A DNA stretch of 64,000 bases from contig JAMPHW010000002.1 of assembly GCA_023663235.1 (NCBI GenBank), positions 146,608 to 210,607 on the forward strand, written 5' to 3'. The position numbers and the translations under genes are program-made. Source of the DNA: Ruminococcus sp. Lineage in GTDB: Bacteria > Bacillota_I > Bacilli_A > RF39 > UBA660. Under the pieces are notes generated by a model, which saw only the letters and a list, made by a program, of their open reading frames with translations, did no database searches and had not been told where the DNA came from. Below are positions 15,483-33,185 of this stretch, one piece after another (position 1 is the stretch's first letter; every line of letters starts with the position of its first letter).

Positions 15483-16781
15483 TTAAGTTGTTGTTCTCCT
15501 TAGATTTAAGACTTCTATATTAGAATTATAAGTATTCAAATTTGCAATATAGGACTCCACTTTAAATTTAAGACCATAAACATCCCCTAATATTTGTAAA
15601 GCTATTCTAGTATTCAAATCTAAACATTCAAATTCATTTCTCTCTTCTAAAAAATAAGTATTATCCAAAAGAGAAGAATAAGCTTTATTTAAAATATCTA
15701 GCAAAGAAGTTAAAACTTCTTTCTTTATTTCTAATACTAAGATTGGATTATTTAACAATTTTAATAGTTCTTTAGTAGCAATACTAATAACATTTAAAGT
15801 AGAATTTGCCTCACCATTTTGGGCAATAATATTCTTAGCAACGCTTATATCTTCTAATAAATTTTTTTTACCCATTACATTTGGAACAAGAAGCGCTAAA
15901 TCTTTTAAAATAAAATCTAATTCATTTCTAAAAGCTAGTTCAAAATCAACACTTAAATCTAAAACCTTAATTTTATTTTGATATTTAGCAATTAGTTCTT
16001 TTAATCTTTTATTATAAATATTCTTATTATTAGTATCTAATGCATTAATTATAATTTTTAAAGTAGATATATCTTGCGAAAGACTATAACCAGTTTCACA
16101 ATTCAAAGTCAAATAAAAAACATAAACATATAAGACAGTTTCATAAAATTCATGTATTTTAGTTGTTAATTCTTTTTCTATCTTAGTAATACTATTTAAA
16201 GATAGTATTTCATTATTAGGAATAATTAATTTAGCTTCAATCCCCGCTAACATTTCCATAAACTTGGCAATAAAATTATTACCAGATATAAAATCCGCTA
16301 TCTTTTTTATTTCTACTATATCAGTAGGCATATTATTAATTAATTCACCATTTAAATAACTTTTATAAGTGCTTATTTTTTGTTTTAATTCTAAAAGCAT
16401 ATCTAAATTATAAAAACTATTATCAAGTTTTATTAAGTCACTTAAAAGCTTAGCTCTTAAAGATGCTGGAGTATCATATAAAGTTAAAGATAAACTGTCA
16501 TTATCAAAAATTGGTTTTAACTTTTTTAAACCCATCTCATAATTAGCCAGTAAAGTATCAAGTTCTTTTAATGTTAAATCCTTTGTAGTCCCTTCTAAAA
16601 GAGAACATTTTTCTTTAATTCTAACAACTAATTCATTAATTTCGTTATCAATTATTTTTTCACTTATATTCTCTTCTTTATTCATTAATCTTAAAAATTC
16701 TGGATTAGTAATCTCCTTAGTTCCTGTAACAGAACAACCAGTAGAATATCTTAAATCTATTTTTAAAACCATTTCAAGCAT
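15483..16781 (-). CDS. Helical-domain segment of a split LRR-helical paralog (frame stays open upstream to 16979)
   Basis: The 432 aa are colinear with the C-terminal about 430 aa of the 17656-19596 protein: DTPASLRAKLLSDL vs DTPATLKAKLLSEL, INALDTNNKNIYNKR vs IKSLDTNNCNIYKER, LVPNVMGKKNLLEDI vs LVPNIVNKTELLSDL. The same frame continues upstream of the annotated ATG (..FFSNAYSINLLYFLGSHNRTTVTICIEDNFDFKKALRLIK..) and still aligns to the paralog. Confidence 0.6.
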   Translation of the reverse strand: MLEMVLKIDLRYSTGCSVTGTKEITNPEFLRLMNKEENISEKIIDNEINELVVRIKEKCSLLEGTTKDLTLKELDTLLANYEMGLKKLKPIFDNDSLSLTLYDTPASLRAKLLSDLIKLDNSFYNLDMLLELKQKISTYKSYLNGELINNMPTDIVEIKKIADFISGNNFIAKFMEMLAGIEAKLIIPNNEILSLNSITKIEKELTTKIHEFYETVLYVYVFYLTLNCETGYSLSQDISTLKIIINALDTNNKNIYNKRLKELIAKYQNKIKVLDLSVDFELAFRNELDFILKDLALLVPNVMGKKNLLEDISVAKNIIAQNGEANSTLNVISIATKELLKLLNNPILVLEIKKEVLTSLLDILNKAYSSLLDNTYFLEERNEFECLDLNTRIALQILGDVYGLKFKVESYIANLNTYNSNIEVLNLRRTTT

Positions 16782-16921
16782 TTTTAAAACTAATTTATTA
16801 TTATATCCTTGAAAAACAAAATTTGATACACAACCATCACAACTTTTAATAAGCCTTAAAGCTTTTTTAAAGTCAAAATTATCTTCAATACATATTGTAA
16901 CAGTTGTTCTATTATGGCTTC

Positions 16922-17602
16922 CTAAAAAATATAAAAGATTAATACTATAAGCATTACTAAAAAAGATATTAAGATGTTTTTAGAATCATCATCCAAAACA
17001 AAAAGATAAGTAATCTTTTTTAAACTAGGAGGAAGTGTAATTTCCTTAATATTAGTATGACCGAAAGCATATTCTCTAATTATTTCAATCCCTATATTAA
17101 GACTTAATTTTTCTAGATTATGACATTTATAAAAGGCATTATAACCTATTTCCTTTAATGTACTTGGCATTATAACCTCCACTAAAGCAGTATTAGAAAA
17201 AGCATATTTACCTATTCTTTCTAATCCTTCATTCAATGTAACTTTTTCTAAACTAGAGCAATTATCAAAAGCACCATAACTTATCTCTTTTAAGGTATTT
17301 GGCATTATAACCTCAGTTAAAGCAGTATTAGAAAAAGCACACTCACCTATTTTTTCTATTCCTTCTTTTAAAGTTACTTTAGTTAAGCTTATTTGATTAT
17401 TCATAAGAGCATAAAGAATTTCCTTTAATGATCCTGGTATAATTAAAGATTTAACAGTTATACTAGAAAACGGATTACTATCATCTTTTCTTCTTAAAAT
17501 ATCTGTTACCCCATCAGGAATAACAATATCTTCGCTAATTCCACGATATTCTAAAATGCACCCATCTACAATTAACCATTCATCATTATCTATAGTTAAC
17601 AT
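16922..17602 (-). CDS. BspA-type leucine-rich-repeat (LRR_5) segment of the split paralog
   Basis: Repeats such as IGECAFSNTALTEVIMPNTLKEISYGAFDNCSSLEKVTL and IGKYAFSNTALVEVIMPSTLKEIGYNAFYKCHNLEKLSL. Start trimmed to ATG 17602 (AGGTGA RBS). It ends in an out-of-register hydrophobic tail after a T6 tract. No signal peptide. Confidence 0.65.
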   Translation of the reverse strand: MLTIDNDEWLIVDGCILEYRGISEDIVIPDGVTDILRRKDDSNPFSSITVKSLIIPGSLKEILYALMNNQISLTKVTLKEGIEKIGECAFSNTALTEVIMPNTLKEISYGAFDNCSSLEKVTLNEGLERIGKYAFSNTALVEVIMPSTLKEIGYNAFYKCHNLEKLSLNIGIEIIREYAFGHTNIKEITLPPSLKKITYLFVLDDDSKNILISFLVMLIVLIFYIF

Positions 17603-17655
17603 AAGTATCACCTTTTAAGTTGTTATTTTACCATAAAAAAAGCTAAAAAACAATT

Positions 17656-19596
17656 TTATAACTTATAGTTTATAGCTTCATTATAACTTCTTAATTCATT
17701 AAGATACTTTTCTAGATTAAATTTAATATCATACAAGCCTTTTAAAATCTGAATAGATACTTGCTGGTTCCAACTTAAACTACTGGTTATCTCATTTTCA
17801 TGTAATATAAAACTATCTTGCATAATGCTTTGATAAGAACTATCTAAAAGACTAGAAATAGATGTAATAATATCCTTTTTTAAATCTTCATTAACTAAAC
17901 TATTACTAAGTACTTCCATTATATCTTTAACTGTACCACTAATAGCACCTAGGGGTTTATTATTATCACTAGTTAATAGTGATTTTGCTTCACACAAATC
18001 ACTTAACAATTCAGTTTTGTTTACAATATTTGGAACTAAAGTAGATAATTCTTCAATTAAAGGTTGCAATTCTTCTCTTAAATTTCTTTCAGTATTATTA
18101 TCTACTTTGAGTCTCATCGCTTTATATGTATACCCATTTATAATACTATAAAACCTTTCTTTATAGATATTACAGTTATTAGTATCTAAAGATTTAATTA
18201 TAGCTTCTAAAGAAACTAAATCTTGACCTAAGTTTGTAGATGCATCTCTACTTAAAGCTTTAAAAAAATTATTAGCTAATATTGCTTTACCACACACTTC
18301 ATTTATTTTATTTTCTAATATTGTATCATAATCTATTGTAATAGCAAAATTAAATGCTAAGTTAAAGACATCGCTAGAACTTCGCATTATTTCTACTTCT
18401 ATTTCATCCAATATTTCTATTAGTATTTCATTTAAATAAGGAATATTATCTTTATAAGTCATTACTTCACTTATTTTTTTAGATATATTATCAAAGTTAA
18501 AAGTTTCATTATTATTTATTATCTCGCGATATTTAATTATTTTTTCTTTTAAAGAAGTATAGCTTTCTATTCTAGTAAAATTTAAAAGCATAACATTTAA
18601 TTCTGATAATAACTTAGCTTTTAAAGTTGCTGGTGTATCTGCTATCGTAAGCTTTATGTCGTTAGAAGATAAAGATTGGTAACTAGGTTCTAAAGCCTTT
18701 AAATCTTTTAAATATTTATTGATTAAACTATCTAATTTAGTTAAAATAGCTTGCTTATCTTTTTCTTCAAATACATTAGTTTTTTCTCTTATTTCATTTA
18801 CTAAACTAGATATTTCAGCATCTACTATTAATGGCTCTTTTCTAGTTATTACTTTATCATCGACTAGATAATTATCTTCTTCCATATTAACAAAATCACT
18901 AATTTTTCTTAATTTTTTTAACTCTCTTTTATTATAGTAATTATAAAAAGTAACATGTAAATTAGAATTGTCTAACATTTCTTTAACTTCATCTATATCA
19001 AAATCATTATCAACAATTACTTTGCAATAAATATTTTTCTTTTTATTAATACTATCCTTTAATAATAAGAAAGTCTTAAAATGACATATTAAAGTAGTAT
19101 TAGGATTAAAAGCATCATTACCAATATCGTTAAGTGATGTAGGTAAGTATACTTCTTTTAAATTAGTATCATAAAAAGCTAAATCCCCAATTTTTTCTAA
19201 ACCATCATTTAAAATAACTTTTTTTAAATTGTGATTAAAAGTAAAGGCTGAATAACCAACACTTCTTAAAGAACTAGGCATAATAATCTCACTAATATTA
19301 GTATTTTTAAAAGCATTACCTCCTATAACACTTATTCCTTCTTCTAAAGTAACTTTGGTTAAAAGTTCATAATTAACTACAAAGTTTTTAGGAATTGTAC
19401 CAACAGAGCCAGGTATAGTTAAAGATTTTATACCCACTCCTTTATTAAAATAAGTATAAGTATAAGAAAGTTTAAATGAAAAATTTTCATCAAAGCTAAT
19501 TACGCCATCAGGAATGACAACATCTTCAGAGGTTCCAAAATGTTCTTTAACACATCCATCCACAATTAGCCACTCATTATTATTTATATTTAACAT
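17656..19596 (-). CDS. Fusion of an N-terminal BspA-type LRR domain and a about 430-aa helical domain of unknown function
   Basis: N-terminus MLNINNNEWLIVDGCVKEHFGTSEDVVIPDGV followed by LRR_5 repeats, then a long predicted helical region. Start trimmed to ATG 19596 (GGTGA RBS) by analogy with the paralog's N-terminus MLTIDNDEWLIVDGC. No signal peptide or TM. Confidence 0.7.
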   Translation of the reverse strand: MLNINNNEWLIVDGCVKEHFGTSEDVVIPDGVISFDENFSFKLSYTYTYFNKGVGIKSLTIPGSVGTIPKNFVVNYELLTKVTLEEGISVIGGNAFKNTNISEIIMPSSLRSVGYSAFTFNHNLKKVILNDGLEKIGDLAFYDTNLKEVYLPTSLNDIGNDAFNPNTTLICHFKTFLLLKDSINKKKNIYCKVIVDNDFDIDEVKEMLDNSNLHVTFYNYYNKRELKKLRKISDFVNMEEDNYLVDDKVITRKEPLIVDAEISSLVNEIREKTNVFEEKDKQAILTKLDSLINKYLKDLKALEPSYQSLSSNDIKLTIADTPATLKAKLLSELNVMLLNFTRIESYTSLKEKIIKYREIINNNETFNFDNISKKISEVMTYKDNIPYLNEILIEILDEIEVEIMRSSSDVFNLAFNFAITIDYDTILENKINEVCGKAILANNFFKALSRDASTNLGQDLVSLEAIIKSLDTNNCNIYKERFYSIINGYTYKAMRLKVDNNTERNLREELQPLIEELSTLVPNIVNKTELLSDLCEAKSLLTSDNNKPLGAISGTVKDIMEVLSNSLVNEDLKKDIITSISSLLDSSYQSIMQDSFILHENEITSSLSWNQQVSIQILKGLYDIKFNLEKYLNELRSYNEAINYKL

Positions 19597-19644
19597 GATA
19601 TCACCATCTATTATAATTTTATCATAAAAAAAGATAGATAACAA

Positions 19645-19896
19645 TTATTTGACATCTAACTTGACAACAGTTACCCCCGGATTAAATATGTCCACATAAA
19701 AAGACTCAACGTTTTTATTTCTCTTTAAAAGTTCATGAACCCTTATTTTTAAAATATCTGAACTTCTCCCATGAATAATAGCAACTTCTCTATTTTGAAG
19801 CTTTATATTATCTCTTAAAAAATCCTCTACTAAAAAAACACAGGTATCTCTTGTTTCACCGTGTAAATTTAGCGTAGGCGTTTTACTTACTAGCAT
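19645..19896 (-). CDS. Stand-alone Smr (small MutS-related) domain protein
   Basis: 83 aa. LNLHGETRDTCVFLVEDFL...VAIIHGRSS fits the Smr LDLHG...E...iiHGkG pattern. Its start overlaps the upstream kinase stop by 14 nt. Confidence 0.75.
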   Translation of the reverse strand: MLVSKTPTLNLHGETRDTCVFLVEDFLRDNIKLQNREVAIIHGRSSDILKIRVHELLKRNKNVESFYVDIFNPGVTVVKLDVK

Positions 19897-29717: not shown

Positions 29718-30701
29718 TTATTTTAAATTTTCTATTAATTCTTCTTTTTTCATAGTAGAATAGCCTTTTAAGCCTTGTTCTTTAGCTATATTTTTTAATT
29801 CTGCTAAAGTAAGAGAACCATAATCTTTTGCTTCTTCTTTTATAGAAGCTTTTTCAACTTTTTCTGGCTTTCTATCTTTCTTTTCTACTTTTCTATCTTT
29901 ATAACCATTAAACTTATCATCTTTTGTAATTTCAGCTTTAGGTTCTTCTTTAATTAGTTCATCCATTGTCTTTGTTTCTTTAGATTTCTTATCTTCTTCA
30001 GTAACATAATCAACCATTTCTAAATTACGAGCTTCACAAATAGCATTTGCTAAAACTCCTAAAATAACTTTAACGCTTCTTACAGCATCATCATTACCTG
30101 GAATTACAAAATCAACATCATCAGGATCACAGTTAGTATCTACAATACCAAATACTGGAATTTTAAGTTTTCTAGCTTCTCTTATCGCATTAATTTCCTT
30201 TTTAGGATCTACGATAATCAACGCATTAGGAAGTTTATCCATAGCTCTAATACCTGATAAAATTTTATTTAATTTTTCATATTCTTTTTTAAGTCCTATA
30301 ACTTCTTTTTTAGGTAACACTTCGAAACGTCCATCTTTTTCCATTGCTTCAATTTCTTCTAGACGTCTAACTCTTCTTCTAATTGTTCTAAAATTAGTTA
30401 AAGTACCACCTAACCAACGCTCAGTTACATAATAAGAATTACTTCTTAAAGCTTCTTCTTTAGCAACTTCTTGAGCTTGTTTTTTTGTACCTACAAATAG
30501 GAATGTTCCACCATTATCAGCGATTGCTTTAATTTCAGTATAAGCTTCTTCCATTAATTTTGTAGTTTTTTCAAGGTCTATTATATAAATATCCTCTCTT
30601 GTACCAAAGATATATTCTTTCATCTTTGGGTTCCATCTTTTTGTTTGATGTCCAAAATGAACACCAGCTTCTAATAAATAACTCATAGAAACTACGGCCA
30701 T
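29718..30701 (-). CDS. rpsB: 30S ribosomal protein S2 with a about 95-aa C-terminal extension ending in a Rho_N/HeH-like motif
   Basis: S2 core ([19 protein letters not shown]..., IVDTNCDPD). 327 aa, whereas I recall typical S2 at about 240-260 aa. The tail ends [31 protein letters not shown]. Confidence 0.93.
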
Positions 30702-30890
30702 AAATTAACACCTGTCCTTTCGTTTTTACCTCTTAATACTTCAACATAAACCACCACTACTTTTAGGTAGCACTAGGAAATTTACTCAGTATTAATGTGT
30801 ATTTGCAATTTATTTGCCACAAACATTGTACTATATATTATATAAAAATACAAGTTAAAAATGCTTTAAATGCTCATAATTTCTAAGAAA

Positions 30891-33185
30891 CTAGCAATTT
30901 TGCAACTTATTTTGTTCTTTCATGATAAGGACTAATTCACTTATAAATGGACTTCTTTTATTCTCATCTTCATTATATAATAAATACACATAATTTTTAG
31001 TTCGAGTTAGAGCAACATAAAATAGTCTTCGCTCTTCAGCAAAAGGAATACTTTCCTCTTCTAATCTTTCCTTAAATAGGGCTTTTAACCAAAATGGATC
31101 TTTTATATTACTCGGGAAAGTATTATTTAAACCAATTAATATTACTTCATCACAAGTAAGACCTTTAGATTTATGAATAGTCATACCATCAATATCTATA
31201 TCTTCATAACCTATAAAAGTTATTTTAGTATCAATTTCATCCCTAAAATCATTGTCTTTAAATAAATTATTTATCATGTCATTAGTTCTTGCTAAAACCA
31301 TTATTTTATGAGTTGGATTTTCTTGATGAATTTTAATTATTAATTTTTTTAAAGTTTCTTTTTCTTCTTTATCTTTAAATTTAATAAATCTAATAGGATT
31401 TCTAATGATTTTATCAGAAACTAATTCTTTTTTTATTTGATCATCATTTTTCATAACAAAACTACCTGAATATTTTATAAGTTCCTCACTATTACGATAA
31501 GTTTTAGTAATTTTTAATAATTTAGCTCCATTAAAATATTTTTCAAAATTATATATATATTTAATCTTAGAGCCAGTAAAAGCAAATATCGATTGCCAAT
31601 CATCACCTACTGCAACCACCTTAGAACTATTTATATCTGATATCTTTTTAGCAAATAAATATCTTTCTTTAGATATATCCTGATATTCATCAATAATTAT
31701 ATAATCAAATTGTAAATTATTACTATGCCCTATACTTTCCATGTATTTTAAAGCATAATAGAATAAATCACTAAAATCAAAACCATATTTCTCAGAATCA
31801 TTAAATAATTTATCCTGATAATATATATAAAACTCATTAAAATAGCTAAACTCTTTATACATTAAAGTTTGAACTTCGCTAGGGCTTTTAGATATAAAAT
31901 CATTTATTATATCTATATAATCACTTCTTCTTTCATGAGCTTTTAAAGTATCCACAAGATTATATAAAAAATCTTTAAAAGGATAAATTGTAGAAGCTGG
32001 ATTATTGCTTAATATTCTATCATATATTTCTTCATAAGTTTTAGGTTTTAAAACAAAACCCATCTTTAAAAGTTCTCTTTTTAAAGTTTCTTCTAAATTT
32101 TCGCCTGGAATACGATCAAGCGCAATAAATCTCGTATTATGTTCTTTATGATATTGTTCTTTTTGTTTTCTATTTTTTTCATAACGAGCAAGCTCGTTAT
32201 ATGAAGAAGAATCATAATTAGATAAACCAAAATATTCTAAATATACAGGAAATCCTCCTAGTTCAAGCGTAAAATCTGGCTTATATGATTTATTATCACT
32301 AATTAATTCAGGATATATTTTTTCATATTCGTATTCTATTCCGTTTCGATATAAGAAATTAGCAATTATTGCTTCCCCTTTTGATTTTACTATTTCACCA
32401 GTTATCGTTTTAATATACTCATCATTATTTATATTAGCCTCAATTAAATCTTCAACAAATCTAGGTAAATCTTTTACTTCTAATATTTTATTTTTCTTAT
32501 AATCTTTAAAATAATCATCAAAAGTAGCATATTTCTCATAATTATCTTTAAAATATTTGCCAAAAAGCCAAGGGTAACCTGTCTTATCTCGACTAAATAT
32601 CTCCATTATTTCTTTTAGCTTCTCTTTGTAAGGAAAAATTTTTTCTTTAAAGAAATCAATAAATATTTTATTTCTTAATTCATAATCTATAACATAACAC
32701 TTATGCGTTTTAAATATTTCTCTTATATAAGAAAATCCTAAAGAATGAAATGTCGTTATATTAGCAGATATTCCAAAATCAACTTTAATTCTTGCTTCTA
32801 ATTCTTCTGTAGCTTTTTTAGTAAAACTCATAACGGCTATTTTAGAAGGATTTACCCCTTTTATATCAACTAAATATTTTACTTTAGAAACCATAGTAGT
32901 AGTTTTCCCTGTACCAGCTCCTGCAATTATCAAGGAATAATCTTCATCTGTTAATATTGCTTTTATTTGCTCTTTATCTAAATGAATATTATCATCTATT
33001 CCTTTATACATATTAAGAAAATAGTCTTTATATTTAATATAATCGTTTTCAACCACATTATCATTATATTTATTTAAATCGAAATTATTAGGTATTAAAT
33101 TAGGATTTTCTGTCTTTATTTTATTATAAAGATTCGCACTAATATATTCATAATTACTTAACTTTCTATTAAACTCTTCAATCAT
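30891..33185 (-). CDS. UvrD/Rep-superfamily helicase, DNA helicase IV-like, with an embedded restriction-endonuclease-like module
   Basis: 764 aa. Walker A IIAGAGTGKTTTM. Insert KSKGEAIIANFLYRNGIEYEYEKIY...YKPDFTL...YLEYFG is typical of helicase IV-type proteins. C-terminal FYVALTRTKN motif. Confidence 0.8.
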   Translation of the reverse strand: MIEEFNRKLSNYEYISANLYNKIKTENPNLIPNNFDLNKYNDNVVENDYIKYKDYFLNMYKGIDDNIHLDKEQIKAILTDEDYSLIIAGAGTGKTTTMVSKVKYLVDIKGVNPSKIAVMSFTKKATEELEARIKVDFGISANITTFHSLGFSYIREIFKTHKCYVIDYELRNKIFIDFFKEKIFPYKEKLKEIMEIFSRDKTGYPWLFGKYFKDNYEKYATFDDYFKDYKKNKILEVKDLPRFVEDLIEANINNDEYIKTITGEIVKSKGEAIIANFLYRNGIEYEYEKIYPELISDNKSYKPDFTLELGGFPVYLEYFGLSNYDSSSYNELARYEKNRKQKEQYHKEHNTRFIALDRIPGENLEETLKRELLKMGFVLKPKTYEEIYDRILSNNPASTIYPFKDFLYNLVDTLKAHERRSDYIDIINDFISKSPSEVQTLMYKEFSYFNEFYIYYQDKLFNDSEKYGFDFSDLFYYALKYMESIGHSNNLQFDYIIIDEYQDISKERYLFAKKISDINSSKVVAVGDDWQSIFAFTGSKIKYIYNFEKYFNGAKLLKITKTYRNSEELIKYSGSFVMKNDDQIKKELVSDKIIRNPIRFIKFKDKEEKETLKKLIIKIHQENPTHKIMVLARTNDMINNLFKDNDFRDEIDTKITFIGYEDIDIDGMTIHKSKGLTCDEVILIGLNNTFPSNIKDPFWLKALFKERLEEESIPFAEERRLFYVALTRTKNYVYLLYNEDENKRSPFISELVLIMKEQNKLQNC

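What the first reader, a model, noticed from the sequence alone, without database searches (positions are those of the whole stretch)
16922..16982. LRR-helical paralog is split exactly at an in-frame T_TTT_TTA heptamer / T6 tract: indel pseudogene, phase switch or -1 frameshifting
The 226-aa LRR ORF (17602-16922) and the 432-aa helical ORF (16781-15483) are together colinear with the single 646-aa protein encoded just upstream (19596-17656). The helical frame is already open from 16979 and overlaps the LRR frame by about 55 nt.

In the LRR frame the coding strand reads ...AAC ATC TTA ATA TCT TTT TTA GTA... (plus-strand A6 at 16959-16964). A -1 shift here, or one extra T in the run, gives ...I-S-F-(F/L)-S-N-A-Y-S-I-N-L-L-Y-F-L-G-S-H-N-R-T-T-V-T-I-C-I-E-D-N-F-D-F... 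This restores the LRR motif AFSN and aligns with DAFNPNTTLICHF...NIYCKVIVDNDFDI of the paralog.

T_TTT_TTA in the zero frame is a canonical X_XXY_YYZ -1 slippery heptamer. The LRR-frame continuation (ILISFLVMLIVLIFYIF*) looks like out-of-frame read-through.
Basis: seen in the sequence. Interest (0 to 1): 0.6.

Follow-up and report, generated by a model that had tools for sequence, protein, structure and literature searches.

The report
Frameshift-broken copy of an LRR-helical gene
One of two neighbouring copies of an uncharacterised gene is cut in two by the loss of a single T in a run of T's; this looks like ordinary gene decay, not a programmed reading-frame trick.

Summary
On the minus strand, the 226-aa LRR ORF (17602-16922) and the 498-codon open frame ending at 15483 are the two halves of one gene. 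Together they are colinear with the intact 646-aa neighbour (19596-17656). The second frame is -1 relative to the first, and the frames overlap at 16979-16922. Family-profile scoring and a DNA alignment with the paralog place the lesion at the T6 run (16959-16964).

T_TTT_TTA is not distinctive: it occurs in frame 324 times in this genome. No stimulatory structure follows it. It is not conserved in homologues, and it is not among the efficient bacterial -1 motifs.

The downstream half has no start codon for 66 codons, and its annotated ATG has no Shine-Dalgarno sequence. The cut lies inside a folded domain. Family members found in other genomes are mostly single ORFs. Two are broken in other ways: a +1 insertion seen in three samples, and a nonsense codon. 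A related strain lacks the whole two-gene cassette.

Best reading: a recent, real 1-nt deletion that made a pseudogene (about 0.65). Programmed frameshifting is about 0.03. Interest is low.

The parts
17656..19596 (-). Intact paralog, 646 aa. It has a BspA-type LRR domain (about residues 1-172), a small alpha/beta subdomain (about 168-240) and a helical domain (about 260-645). It has its own SD (GGTGAT).
   Evidence: LRR_5, E 3.4e-24. (AlphaFold2, mean pLDDT 79). (the LRR part matches PcpA, TpLRR and Bacteroides LRR structures; the helical part has no match). (SD -6.4 kcal/mol).
16922..17602 (-). 5' half of the broken gene: a 226-aa LRR ORF with its own SD. Its last 12 codons (16925-16960, LVMLIVLIFYIF), followed by the TAG stop (16922-16924), are out-of-frame read-through.
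   Evidence: LRR_5, E 6.7e-62. (42% identity to the paralog N-terminus). (SD -6.9 kcal/mol). (keeping this frame past the T run lowers the family-profile score).
16958..16964 (-). T_TTT_TTA on the coding strand, with the T6 run at 16959-16964. This is the inferred site of a 1-nt deletion (T7 to T6) that shifts the rest of the gene into the -1 frame.
   Evidence: (the best-scoring homopolymer site). (DNA alignment with the paralog). (the homologue reads C-F-F-S-N-A here, matching S-F-F-S-N-A of the read-through).
16782..16979 (-). 66 codons of the -1 frame upstream of the annotated ATG. They hold no ATG, GTG or TTG. They encode the end of the last LRR and most of the alpha/beta subdomain (FFSNAYS...ICIEDNFDF...FVFQGYNNK).
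   Evidence: aligns with the paralog and with P0003-P0007. (corresponds to strands and helices 168-232 of the paralog model).
15483..16781 (-). Annotated 432-aa (429-aa in the public record) 'helical' ORF. This is the 3' half of the broken gene. Its ATG has no SD and falls inside a helix of the alpha/beta subdomain.
   Evidence: P0001, 429 aa. (SD +0.8 kcal/mol, against a genome median of -7 to -8)..
16980..16982 (-). TAA stop in the -1 frame. It sets the upstream limit of where the frame change can lie.

Best explanation
The second copy of a tandem pair of LRR_5 + alpha/beta + helical-domain genes lost one T from a T7 run (now T6, 16959-16964). Ribosomes that start at 17602 therefore run into 12 out-of-frame codons and stop at 16922-16924. 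The remaining 498 codons are left without a start codon or a ribosome-binding site of their own.

This is a recent, unprogrammed frameshift mutation, that is, a young pseudogene. It sits in a dispensable accessory gene family that is also decaying or missing in relatives.

- **Shown:** the two halves form one gene; the frame relation; where the lesion is bracketed; the lack of recoding signals; the lack of an independent start; breakage of other family members; absence of the cassette in a relative.
- **Inferred:** the lesion is real in the organism and is not an assembly artefact; it is not used as a switch.
For: 1. **One gene in two frames.** The read-through aligns end to end with three intact family members in single segments. 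The pieces are 42% and 32% identical to the neighbouring paralog.
2. **Lesion bracketed to the T run.** The profile score is highest among homopolymer sites. The paralog DNA alignment holds the LRR frame up to TCT. FFSNA follows in the -1 frame, as in homologue L016.
3. **The 3' half cannot stand alone.** It has 66 codons without any start codon. The first ATG has an SD energy of +0.8 kcal/mol, against -6.4 and -6.9 for the two true starts and a genome median of about -7. That ATG lies inside a helix of a folded alpha/beta subdomain, and the frame change lies at strand 168-172 of the model. The split therefore cuts a domain, not a linker.
4. **Most members found elsewhere are single ORFs.** Six in four genomes of the genus are 636-1288 aa with no internal stops. 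L016 is 659 aa. P0004, P0005 and P0186-P0191 are 668-765 aa.
5. **Independent decay in the family.** The P0006 gene is split by a 1-nt insertion into a 141-aa LRR ORF and a 546-aa ORF. It is identical in three assemblies. The P0009 gene carries an in-frame TAA where relatives have GAA.
6. **The cassette is dispensable.** A contig from a related strain (85-92% identity) joins the kinase-Smr genes directly to the 140-aa gene. Only about 30 nt of the helical gene's 3' end remain.
7. **The event is recent.** 5.4-6.0% of possible substitutions in the two halves would create a stop, yet 724 codons (226 + 498) are still open.
8. **The assembly is not riddled with frameshifts.** A genome-wide scan for split ORFs found only this case and one AbiEii-like gene. 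The 3400 N's indicate a scaffolded assembly.
Against: - No reads could be examined, so the T6 length rests on one MAG consensus.
- No close orthologue or second strain of this gene exists in any collection searched. Neither fixation nor tract-length stability could be checked.
- Apart from the frameshift, both halves are undamaged. That also fits an assembly error or an 'off' phase allele.
- Earlier, unchecked notes on this genome report other frameshifted genes, one of them at a homopolymer. These could reflect either decay or some consensus error.
Confidence: 0.65

Rival explanations
1. Assembly or sequencing artefact: the organism really has T7 and one intact 706-aa gene, and the MAG consensus dropped one T in the homopolymer.
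For: - The lesion sits in a homopolymer, and both halves are otherwise perfect.
- The genome is a 53-contig MAG at 93.7% completeness.
- Unchecked earlier notes list other frameshifts in this genome.
Against: - The assembly carries N gaps typical of scaffolded assemblies (inferred to be short-read), where T6/T7 errors are rare.
- Of about 5900 A/T runs of 6 or more, only this one splits two long ORFs in my scan. The other real split, in an AbiEii-like gene, has no homopolymer.
- An analogous split in a family member is reproduced in three independent assemblies. Real frameshifts therefore do occur in this family.
Confidence: 0.15
2. Reversible phase variation: slipped-strand mispairing at the T6/T7 run switches the gene between OFF (T6, as assembled) and ON (T7). 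The population would carry both forms, as in BspA-like genes of Candidatus Mycoplasma girerdii.
For: - The frame change is at a mononucleotide run.
- The gene belongs to a tandem, variable BspA-type LRR family.
- BspA-like genes are phase-variable through simple repeats in Ca. M. girerdii (PMC5476646).
- Both halves are intact, as expected of an OFF allele.
Against: - T6/T7 is short for a contingency tract. In PMC5476646 the variable tracts were dinucleotide repeats of 5 or more units and a G8 run.
- The genome has 1881 A/T runs of 7 or more, so this tract is not special.
- The tract is absent at the same site in the paralog and in L016.
- The protein has no signal peptide and is not evidently a surface antigen.
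- Other family members are broken by non-reversible or different lesions.
Confidence: 0.12
3. Programmed -1 ribosomal frameshifting on T_TTT_TTA produces both a 226-aa LRR protein and a roughly 706-aa fusion from the T6 template.
For: The heptamer is in the correct X_XXY_YYZ phase. The downstream frame is -1 and open right through the site.
Against: - There are 324 in-frame copies of this heptamer and 6388 X_XXY_YYZ sites in the genome's long ORFs.
- The 111 nt spanning the heptamer and the following ~100 nt fold no better than shuffles (-11 kcal/mol, z = +0.93; 173 of 200 shuffles fold at least as well).
- There is no SD-like stimulator upstream.
- The heptamer is not conserved in any homologue examined.
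- In E. coli the efficient U-type motifs are H_HH.U_UU.Y. U_UU.U_UU.A is not in the list of motifs above 0.1% without stimulators (PMC4066793).
- The other split family member needs a +1 change at a different site, so there is no family-wide recoding signal.
Confidence: 0.03

Closest known systems
Homopolymer-indel pseudogenes in small, AT-rich bacterial genomes
   Same: - A single-base loss in an A/T run.
- The two halves are colinear with intact paralogs and homologues.
- The downstream half has no start of its own.
- The gene family is dispensable and is lost or broken in relatives.
   Different: Nothing essential differs. The case is young (no further lesions) and rests on one MAG consensus.
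Phase-variable BspA-like LRR genes of Candidatus Mycoplasma girerdii (PMC5476646)
   Same: - A BspA-type LRR_5 domain.
- A multi-copy variable family.
- A truncated 'off' form caused by a frameshift in a simple repeat.
   Different: - In that organism the tracts are dinucleotide repeats of 5 or more units or a G8 run, with measured length heterogeneity. Here the tract is an ordinary T6/T7 with no heterogeneity data.
- This protein has no signal peptide and carries a C-terminal helical domain.
Programmed -1 frameshift sites (dnaX A_AAA_AAG; IS3-family transposases; HIV-1 gag-pol U_UUU_UUA)
   Same: - An X_XXY_YYZ heptamer in the zero frame. It is the same heptamer as in HIV-1 (from my own knowledge).
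- A downstream -1 ORF overlaps the upstream one.
   Different: - There is no stimulatory stem-loop, pseudoknot or upstream SD.
- The heptamer is not conserved in homologues.
- The motif is weak in bacteria (PMC4066793).
- The zero-frame product ends in 12 out-of-frame codons with no match in the family.

Membership tests
Programmed -1 ribosomal frameshift site | Slippery X_XXY_YYZ heptamer in the zero frame at the overlap of the two ORFs | tested here: met
   TCT TTT TTA gives T_TTT_TTA in phase. The same motif occurs in frame 324 times in the genome, so meeting this feature carries little weight.
Programmed -1 ribosomal frameshift site | Stimulatory element: a downstream stem-loop or pseudoknot 5-9 nt after the heptamer, or an upstream SD-like sequence | tested here: not met
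   The minimum free energy is -11 kcal/mol against a shuffle mean of -13.8, z = +0.93. No GGAGG- or GGTG-like element lies in the 25 nt upstream.
Programmed -1 ribosomal frameshift site | Conservation of the heptamer and of the two-frame arrangement among homologues | tested here: not met
   Most homologues are single ORFs. The site reads CAT TTT AAG in the paralog and TTC TTT TCA in L016.
Programmed -1 ribosomal frameshift site | Fusion protein actually made from the unedited template | not testable with these tools
   This needs a reporter assay or proteomics.
Phase-variable contingency locus (slipped-strand mispairing) | Tract-length heterogeneity within a population or between close strains | not testable with these tools
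No second strain with this gene was found in any collection.
Phase-variable contingency locus (slipped-strand mispairing) | Repeat tract unusually long for the genome and conserved as a tract in homologues | tested here: not met
   T6 is one of 5926 A/T runs of 6 or more. The tract is absent at the homologous site in the paralog and in L016.
Frameshift pseudogene | The two ORFs are colinear with one intact homologue across the frame change | tested here: met
Frameshift pseudogene | The downstream part lacks its own translation start, and the split cuts a folded domain | tested here: met
   66 start-less codons, and an SD energy of +0.8 kcal/mol at the first ATG. The cut lies at strand 168-172, and the annotated ATG lies in helix 223-232 of the paralog model.
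Frameshift pseudogene | The lesion is real in the organism's DNA (not a consensus error) and is fixed | not testable with these tools
   Reads were unavailable. Indirect evidence: the split-ORF count is low genome-wide.
BspA-type LRR proteins (Pfam LRR_5, PF13306) | Match to the LRR_5 profile above the gathering score, and a TpLRR/BspA-like fold | tested here: met
   LRR_5 scores 207.5 bits for the broken copy and 85.6 bits for the paralog, against a cut-off of 27.7. Foldseek matches PcpA 4cp6, 4fdw and TpLRR 6mlx.

The most novel reading that the evidence does not exclude
The T6 template is decoded in two ways. Most ribosomes would make a 226-aa LRR protein ending in a hydrophobic tail (ILISFLVMLIVLIFYIF). 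A minority would slip -1 on T_TTT_TTA and make the full LRR-helical protein. Alternatively, the T6/T7 run is a true on/off switch for this family in an uncultured gut bacterium.
Probability: 0.1. Interest if true: 0.4.

Novelty: new member of a known kind. Interest (0 to 1): 0.12.

Why it matters
The main value is for annotation. The public record's separate 226-aa and 429-aa proteins are two halves of one disrupted gene and should be flagged as a pseudogene or frameshifted. The 429-aa 'protein' should not be taken as a stand-alone helical-domain family member.

The case also shows that in a 26% GC genome a 'canonical slippery heptamer' is no evidence of recoding, because there are thousands.

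The gene family itself remains uncharacterised. It combines a cytoplasmic-looking BspA-type LRR, a small alpha/beta subdomain and a roughly 390-aa helical domain with no sequence or fold relative. It appears dispensable: it is broken or absent in several lineages.

Tried and rejected
- **Close orthologues or second strains:**
  - The search for homologous proteins with the 498-aa half returned only the record's own 429-aa protein.
  - The genome contigs and metagenome-contig scans with the gene found nothing.
  - An exact-pattern scan that allowed any run length found nothing.
  - All neighbouring proteins are singleton clusters except the 140-aa one.
- **Profile search with full-length members:** this was swamped by generic LRR_5 proteins and was not used.
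- **Function of the helical domain:** Pfam, NCBIfam, PADLOC, PDB sequence search and PDB fold search gave nothing.
- **Alternative lesion sites:** the second T6, the T4 run and the A5 run score 5-10 bits lower than the first T6. The paralog DNA alignment argues against the A5 run.
- **Transcriptional slippage:** I rejected this from general knowledge, because it needs runs of about 9 or more A/T. It was not tested.
- **Promoter and terminator scan of the locus:** it showed nothing between the two halves and fewer promoter-like sites than shuffles.

Full report
**What is in the sequence**

The window is part of a 1.5-Mb, 53-contig, 27% GC assembly that is 93.7% complete and reads well under table 11.

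Three features lie on the minus strand:
- an intact 646-aa gene at 19596-17656;
- a 226-aa ORF at 17602-16922;
- an ORF annotated from ATG 16781 to 15483, whose frame is already open from 16979 (498 codons).

Pfam finds BspA-type LRR_5 in the 646-aa protein (E 3.4e-24) and in the 226-aa ORF (E 6.7e-62). It finds nothing in the 498-codon frame.

The 226-aa ORF matches the first 207 residues of the 646-aa protein (42% identity, E 2e-42). The 498-codon frame matches residues 257-642 (32% identity, E 5e-50). The 498-codon frame is -1 relative to the LRR frame.

The two frames overlap between TAA 16980-16982, which closes the -1 frame upstream, and TAG 16922-16924, which closes the LRR frame. The LRR frame there reads TCT TTT TTA. 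The coding-strand T6 (16959-16964) followed by A forms T_TTT_TTA in X_XXY_YYZ phase.

**Where the frame change lies**

The 58-nt overlap holds an A5 run, two T6 runs and a T4 run. I restored one base at every position. Each read-through was scored against a profile of six family members that excluded the broken gene.
- Anywhere in the first T6 run: 515.2 bits.
- One or two bases upstream of the run: 517.2 bits.
- A5 run: 510.2 bits.
- Second T6 run: 510.1 bits.
- T4 run: 504.7 bits.

The DNA alignment with the neighbouring paralog keeps the LRR frame through TTA ATA TCT, against TTA ATA TGT (L-I-C) in the paralog. Directly after the run, the -1 frame reads F-F-S-N-A. The closest intact homologue reads C-F-F-S-N-A at the same place (P0003 / L016).

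The virtual read-through (706 aa) aligns in single BLASTP segments with P0002 (1-696 vs 1-642), P0003 (1-699 vs 1-651) and P0004. The simplest history is a T7 run that lost one T. The support is a margin of about 5 bits plus the two alignments. That makes it well bracketed but not proven to the base.

**Is the heptamer meaningful?**

No. In 1160 ORFs of 150 aa or more, this genome has 324 in-frame T_TTT_TTA and 6388 in-frame X_XXY_YYZ sites. Of 673 coding T6 runs, 343 lie in this very phase. The genome holds 5926 A/T runs of 6 or more.

The 111 nt spanning the heptamer and the following ~100 nt fold at -11 kcal/mol. That is weaker than the shuffle mean of -13.8 (z = +0.93). No SD-like sequence lies upstream. 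The site is CAT TTT AAG in the paralog and TTC TTT TCA in L016.

Sharma et al. 2014 (PMC4066793) list the efficient bacterial motifs as V_VV.A_AA.R, H_HH.U_UU.Y, U_UU.A_AA.G and a few others. U_UU.U_UU.A is not among them. [quoted passage not shown] With a pseudoknot, the U_UUA tetramer was only 1.8- to 3.6-fold above background.

**Is the downstream half a gene of its own?**

No, for three reasons.
- There is no ATG, GTG or TTG in the first 66 codons of its frame.
- The first ATG (16781) has no Shine-Dalgarno pairing (+0.8 kcal/mol). The two true starts score -6.4 and -6.9, and the genome median is -7 to -8. Between 88% and 93% of long ORFs have a start at -4 to -5 or better.
- The split cuts a fold, not a linker. 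An AlphaFold2 model of the intact paralog (mean pLDDT 79) shows the LRR up to about residue 172. An alpha/beta subdomain follows (strands 168-172, 189-194, 213-218 and 236-239, with helices between), and then the helical domain runs from 260 to 645. The frame change corresponds to strand 168-172. The annotated ATG corresponds to the middle of helix 223-232.

**The family elsewhere**

A full HMMER scan of 1.8 billion representatives with the helical part found only 61 proteins.

In the same genus, four of 43 other species genomes carry six distant members. All are single open frames of 636-1288 aa, and they include a tandem pair like the one here. The closer subfamily is also fused: P0003/L016 at 659 aa, and P0004, P0005 and P0186-P0191 at 668-765 aa.

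Two shorter members turned out to be broken genes.
- P0006 (546 aa) is preceded by a 141-aa LRR_5 ORF that overlaps it in another frame. The cause is a 1-nt insertion at an A6/GGG stretch, so it needs a +1 change, not -1. The allele is identical in three assemblies that are 99.98% identical overall.
- P0009 (395 aa) follows an in-frame TAA where relatives have GAA.

There is also a presence/absence difference. A 2-kb contig from another sample is 85-92% identical to this locus. It joins the PfkB kinase-Smr genes directly to the 140-aa gene. The whole two-gene cassette (about 15508-19656) is absent there, apart from roughly 30 nt that match the 3' end of the helical gene. The family is thus dispensable and repeatedly decaying. 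The lesions differ in kind and position, which speaks against a conserved recoding or switching device.

**Real mutation or artefact?**

This could not be settled.

Indirect evidence favours a real mutation.
- The assembly has 3400 N's, which points to a scaffolded assembly, probably from short reads.
- A genome-wide scan for same-strand ORF pairs with overlapping open frames gave only two genuine splits. One is this gene. The other is an AbiEii-like gene whose overlap has no homopolymer.

The event must be young if it is real. Between 5.4% and 6.0% of possible substitutions in the two halves would create a stop, yet 724 codons (226 + 498) are still open. I estimate this bounds the age at roughly 2% neutral divergence or less (the bound is my own calculation from that fraction).

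Earlier, unchecked notes on this genome mention other frameshifted genes. I did not test them.

**Phase variation**

BspA-like genes of Candidatus Mycoplasma girerdii are switched by simple repeats. There the variable tracts were dinucleotide repeats of 5 or more units and a G8 run, with measured heterogeneity (PMC5476646).

Here the tract is an ordinary T6/T7 that is not conserved in homologues. The protein has no signal peptide. Reversion by slippage is possible in principle, but nothing marks this as a contingency locus.

**Verdict**

This is a frameshift-disrupted tandem paralog.
- Most likely a recent genuine 1-nt deletion in a T run: 0.65.
- An assembly error: 0.15.
- A reversible switch: 0.12.
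- Programmed -1 frameshifting: 0.03.

The finding is ordinary. Its practical use is to correct the annotation of the 226-aa and 429-aa 'proteins'.

The helical domain has no match in Pfam, NCBIfam, PADLOC or the PDB, by sequence or by fold. It remains unexplained, and that is the subject of a separate note on this window.

Noticed in passing
window 15508-19656; L017 950-1000: A contig from a related strain (85-92% identity) lacks the whole tandem LRR-helical cassette. The PfkB-Smr genes abut the 140-aa gene, and about 30 nt resembling the 3' end of the helical gene are left behind. This is a presence/absence polymorphism, probably a deletion in that lineage.
   Followed up: partly
L019 2613-4641 (also L020, L021): Another family member (P0006) is split into a 141-aa LRR_5 ORF and a 546-aa ORF by a 1-nt insertion at AAAAAAGATTGGG. 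The same allele appears in three assemblies of one strain.
   Followed up: partly
L022 2-1453: Family member P0009 is the tail of a gene interrupted by an in-frame TAA (GAA in relatives). The upstream part also looks degraded.
   Followed up: partly
own genome, contig C51 about 30507-31360 (minus strand): An AbiEii-like nucleotidyltransferase toxin gene appears split into 150-aa and 166-aa frames, with no homopolymer in the overlap. It is a second candidate pseudogene in this genome. The family assignment is from reading the sequence and was not tested.
   Followed up: no
window 17656-19596 (model of the paralog): A small alpha/beta subdomain (about residues 168-240, conserved motifs VIVDDDF and ITFIGY) lies between the LRR and the helical domain. 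The helical domain (260-645) has no PDB fold match. The family has only about 61 representatives among 1.8 billion proteins.
   Followed up: partly
window 16925-16975: The truncated LRR product would end in a 17-residue all-hydrophobic stretch (ILISFLVMLIVLIFYIF). This is most likely an accident of reading T-rich DNA out of frame, but it resembles a tail anchor.
   Followed up: no
window 15862-15869: A coding-strand A8 run (GGT AAA AAA AAT) is the longest homopolymer in the broken gene, and it is still in frame.
   Followed up: no
window 19616-19632 and 17625-17641 (approx.): Both paralogs are preceded by the same CTTTTTTTATG(A/G)TAAAAT element (an extended -10-like sequence) and a GGTGAT SD. 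The duplication therefore included the expression signals.
   Followed up: no
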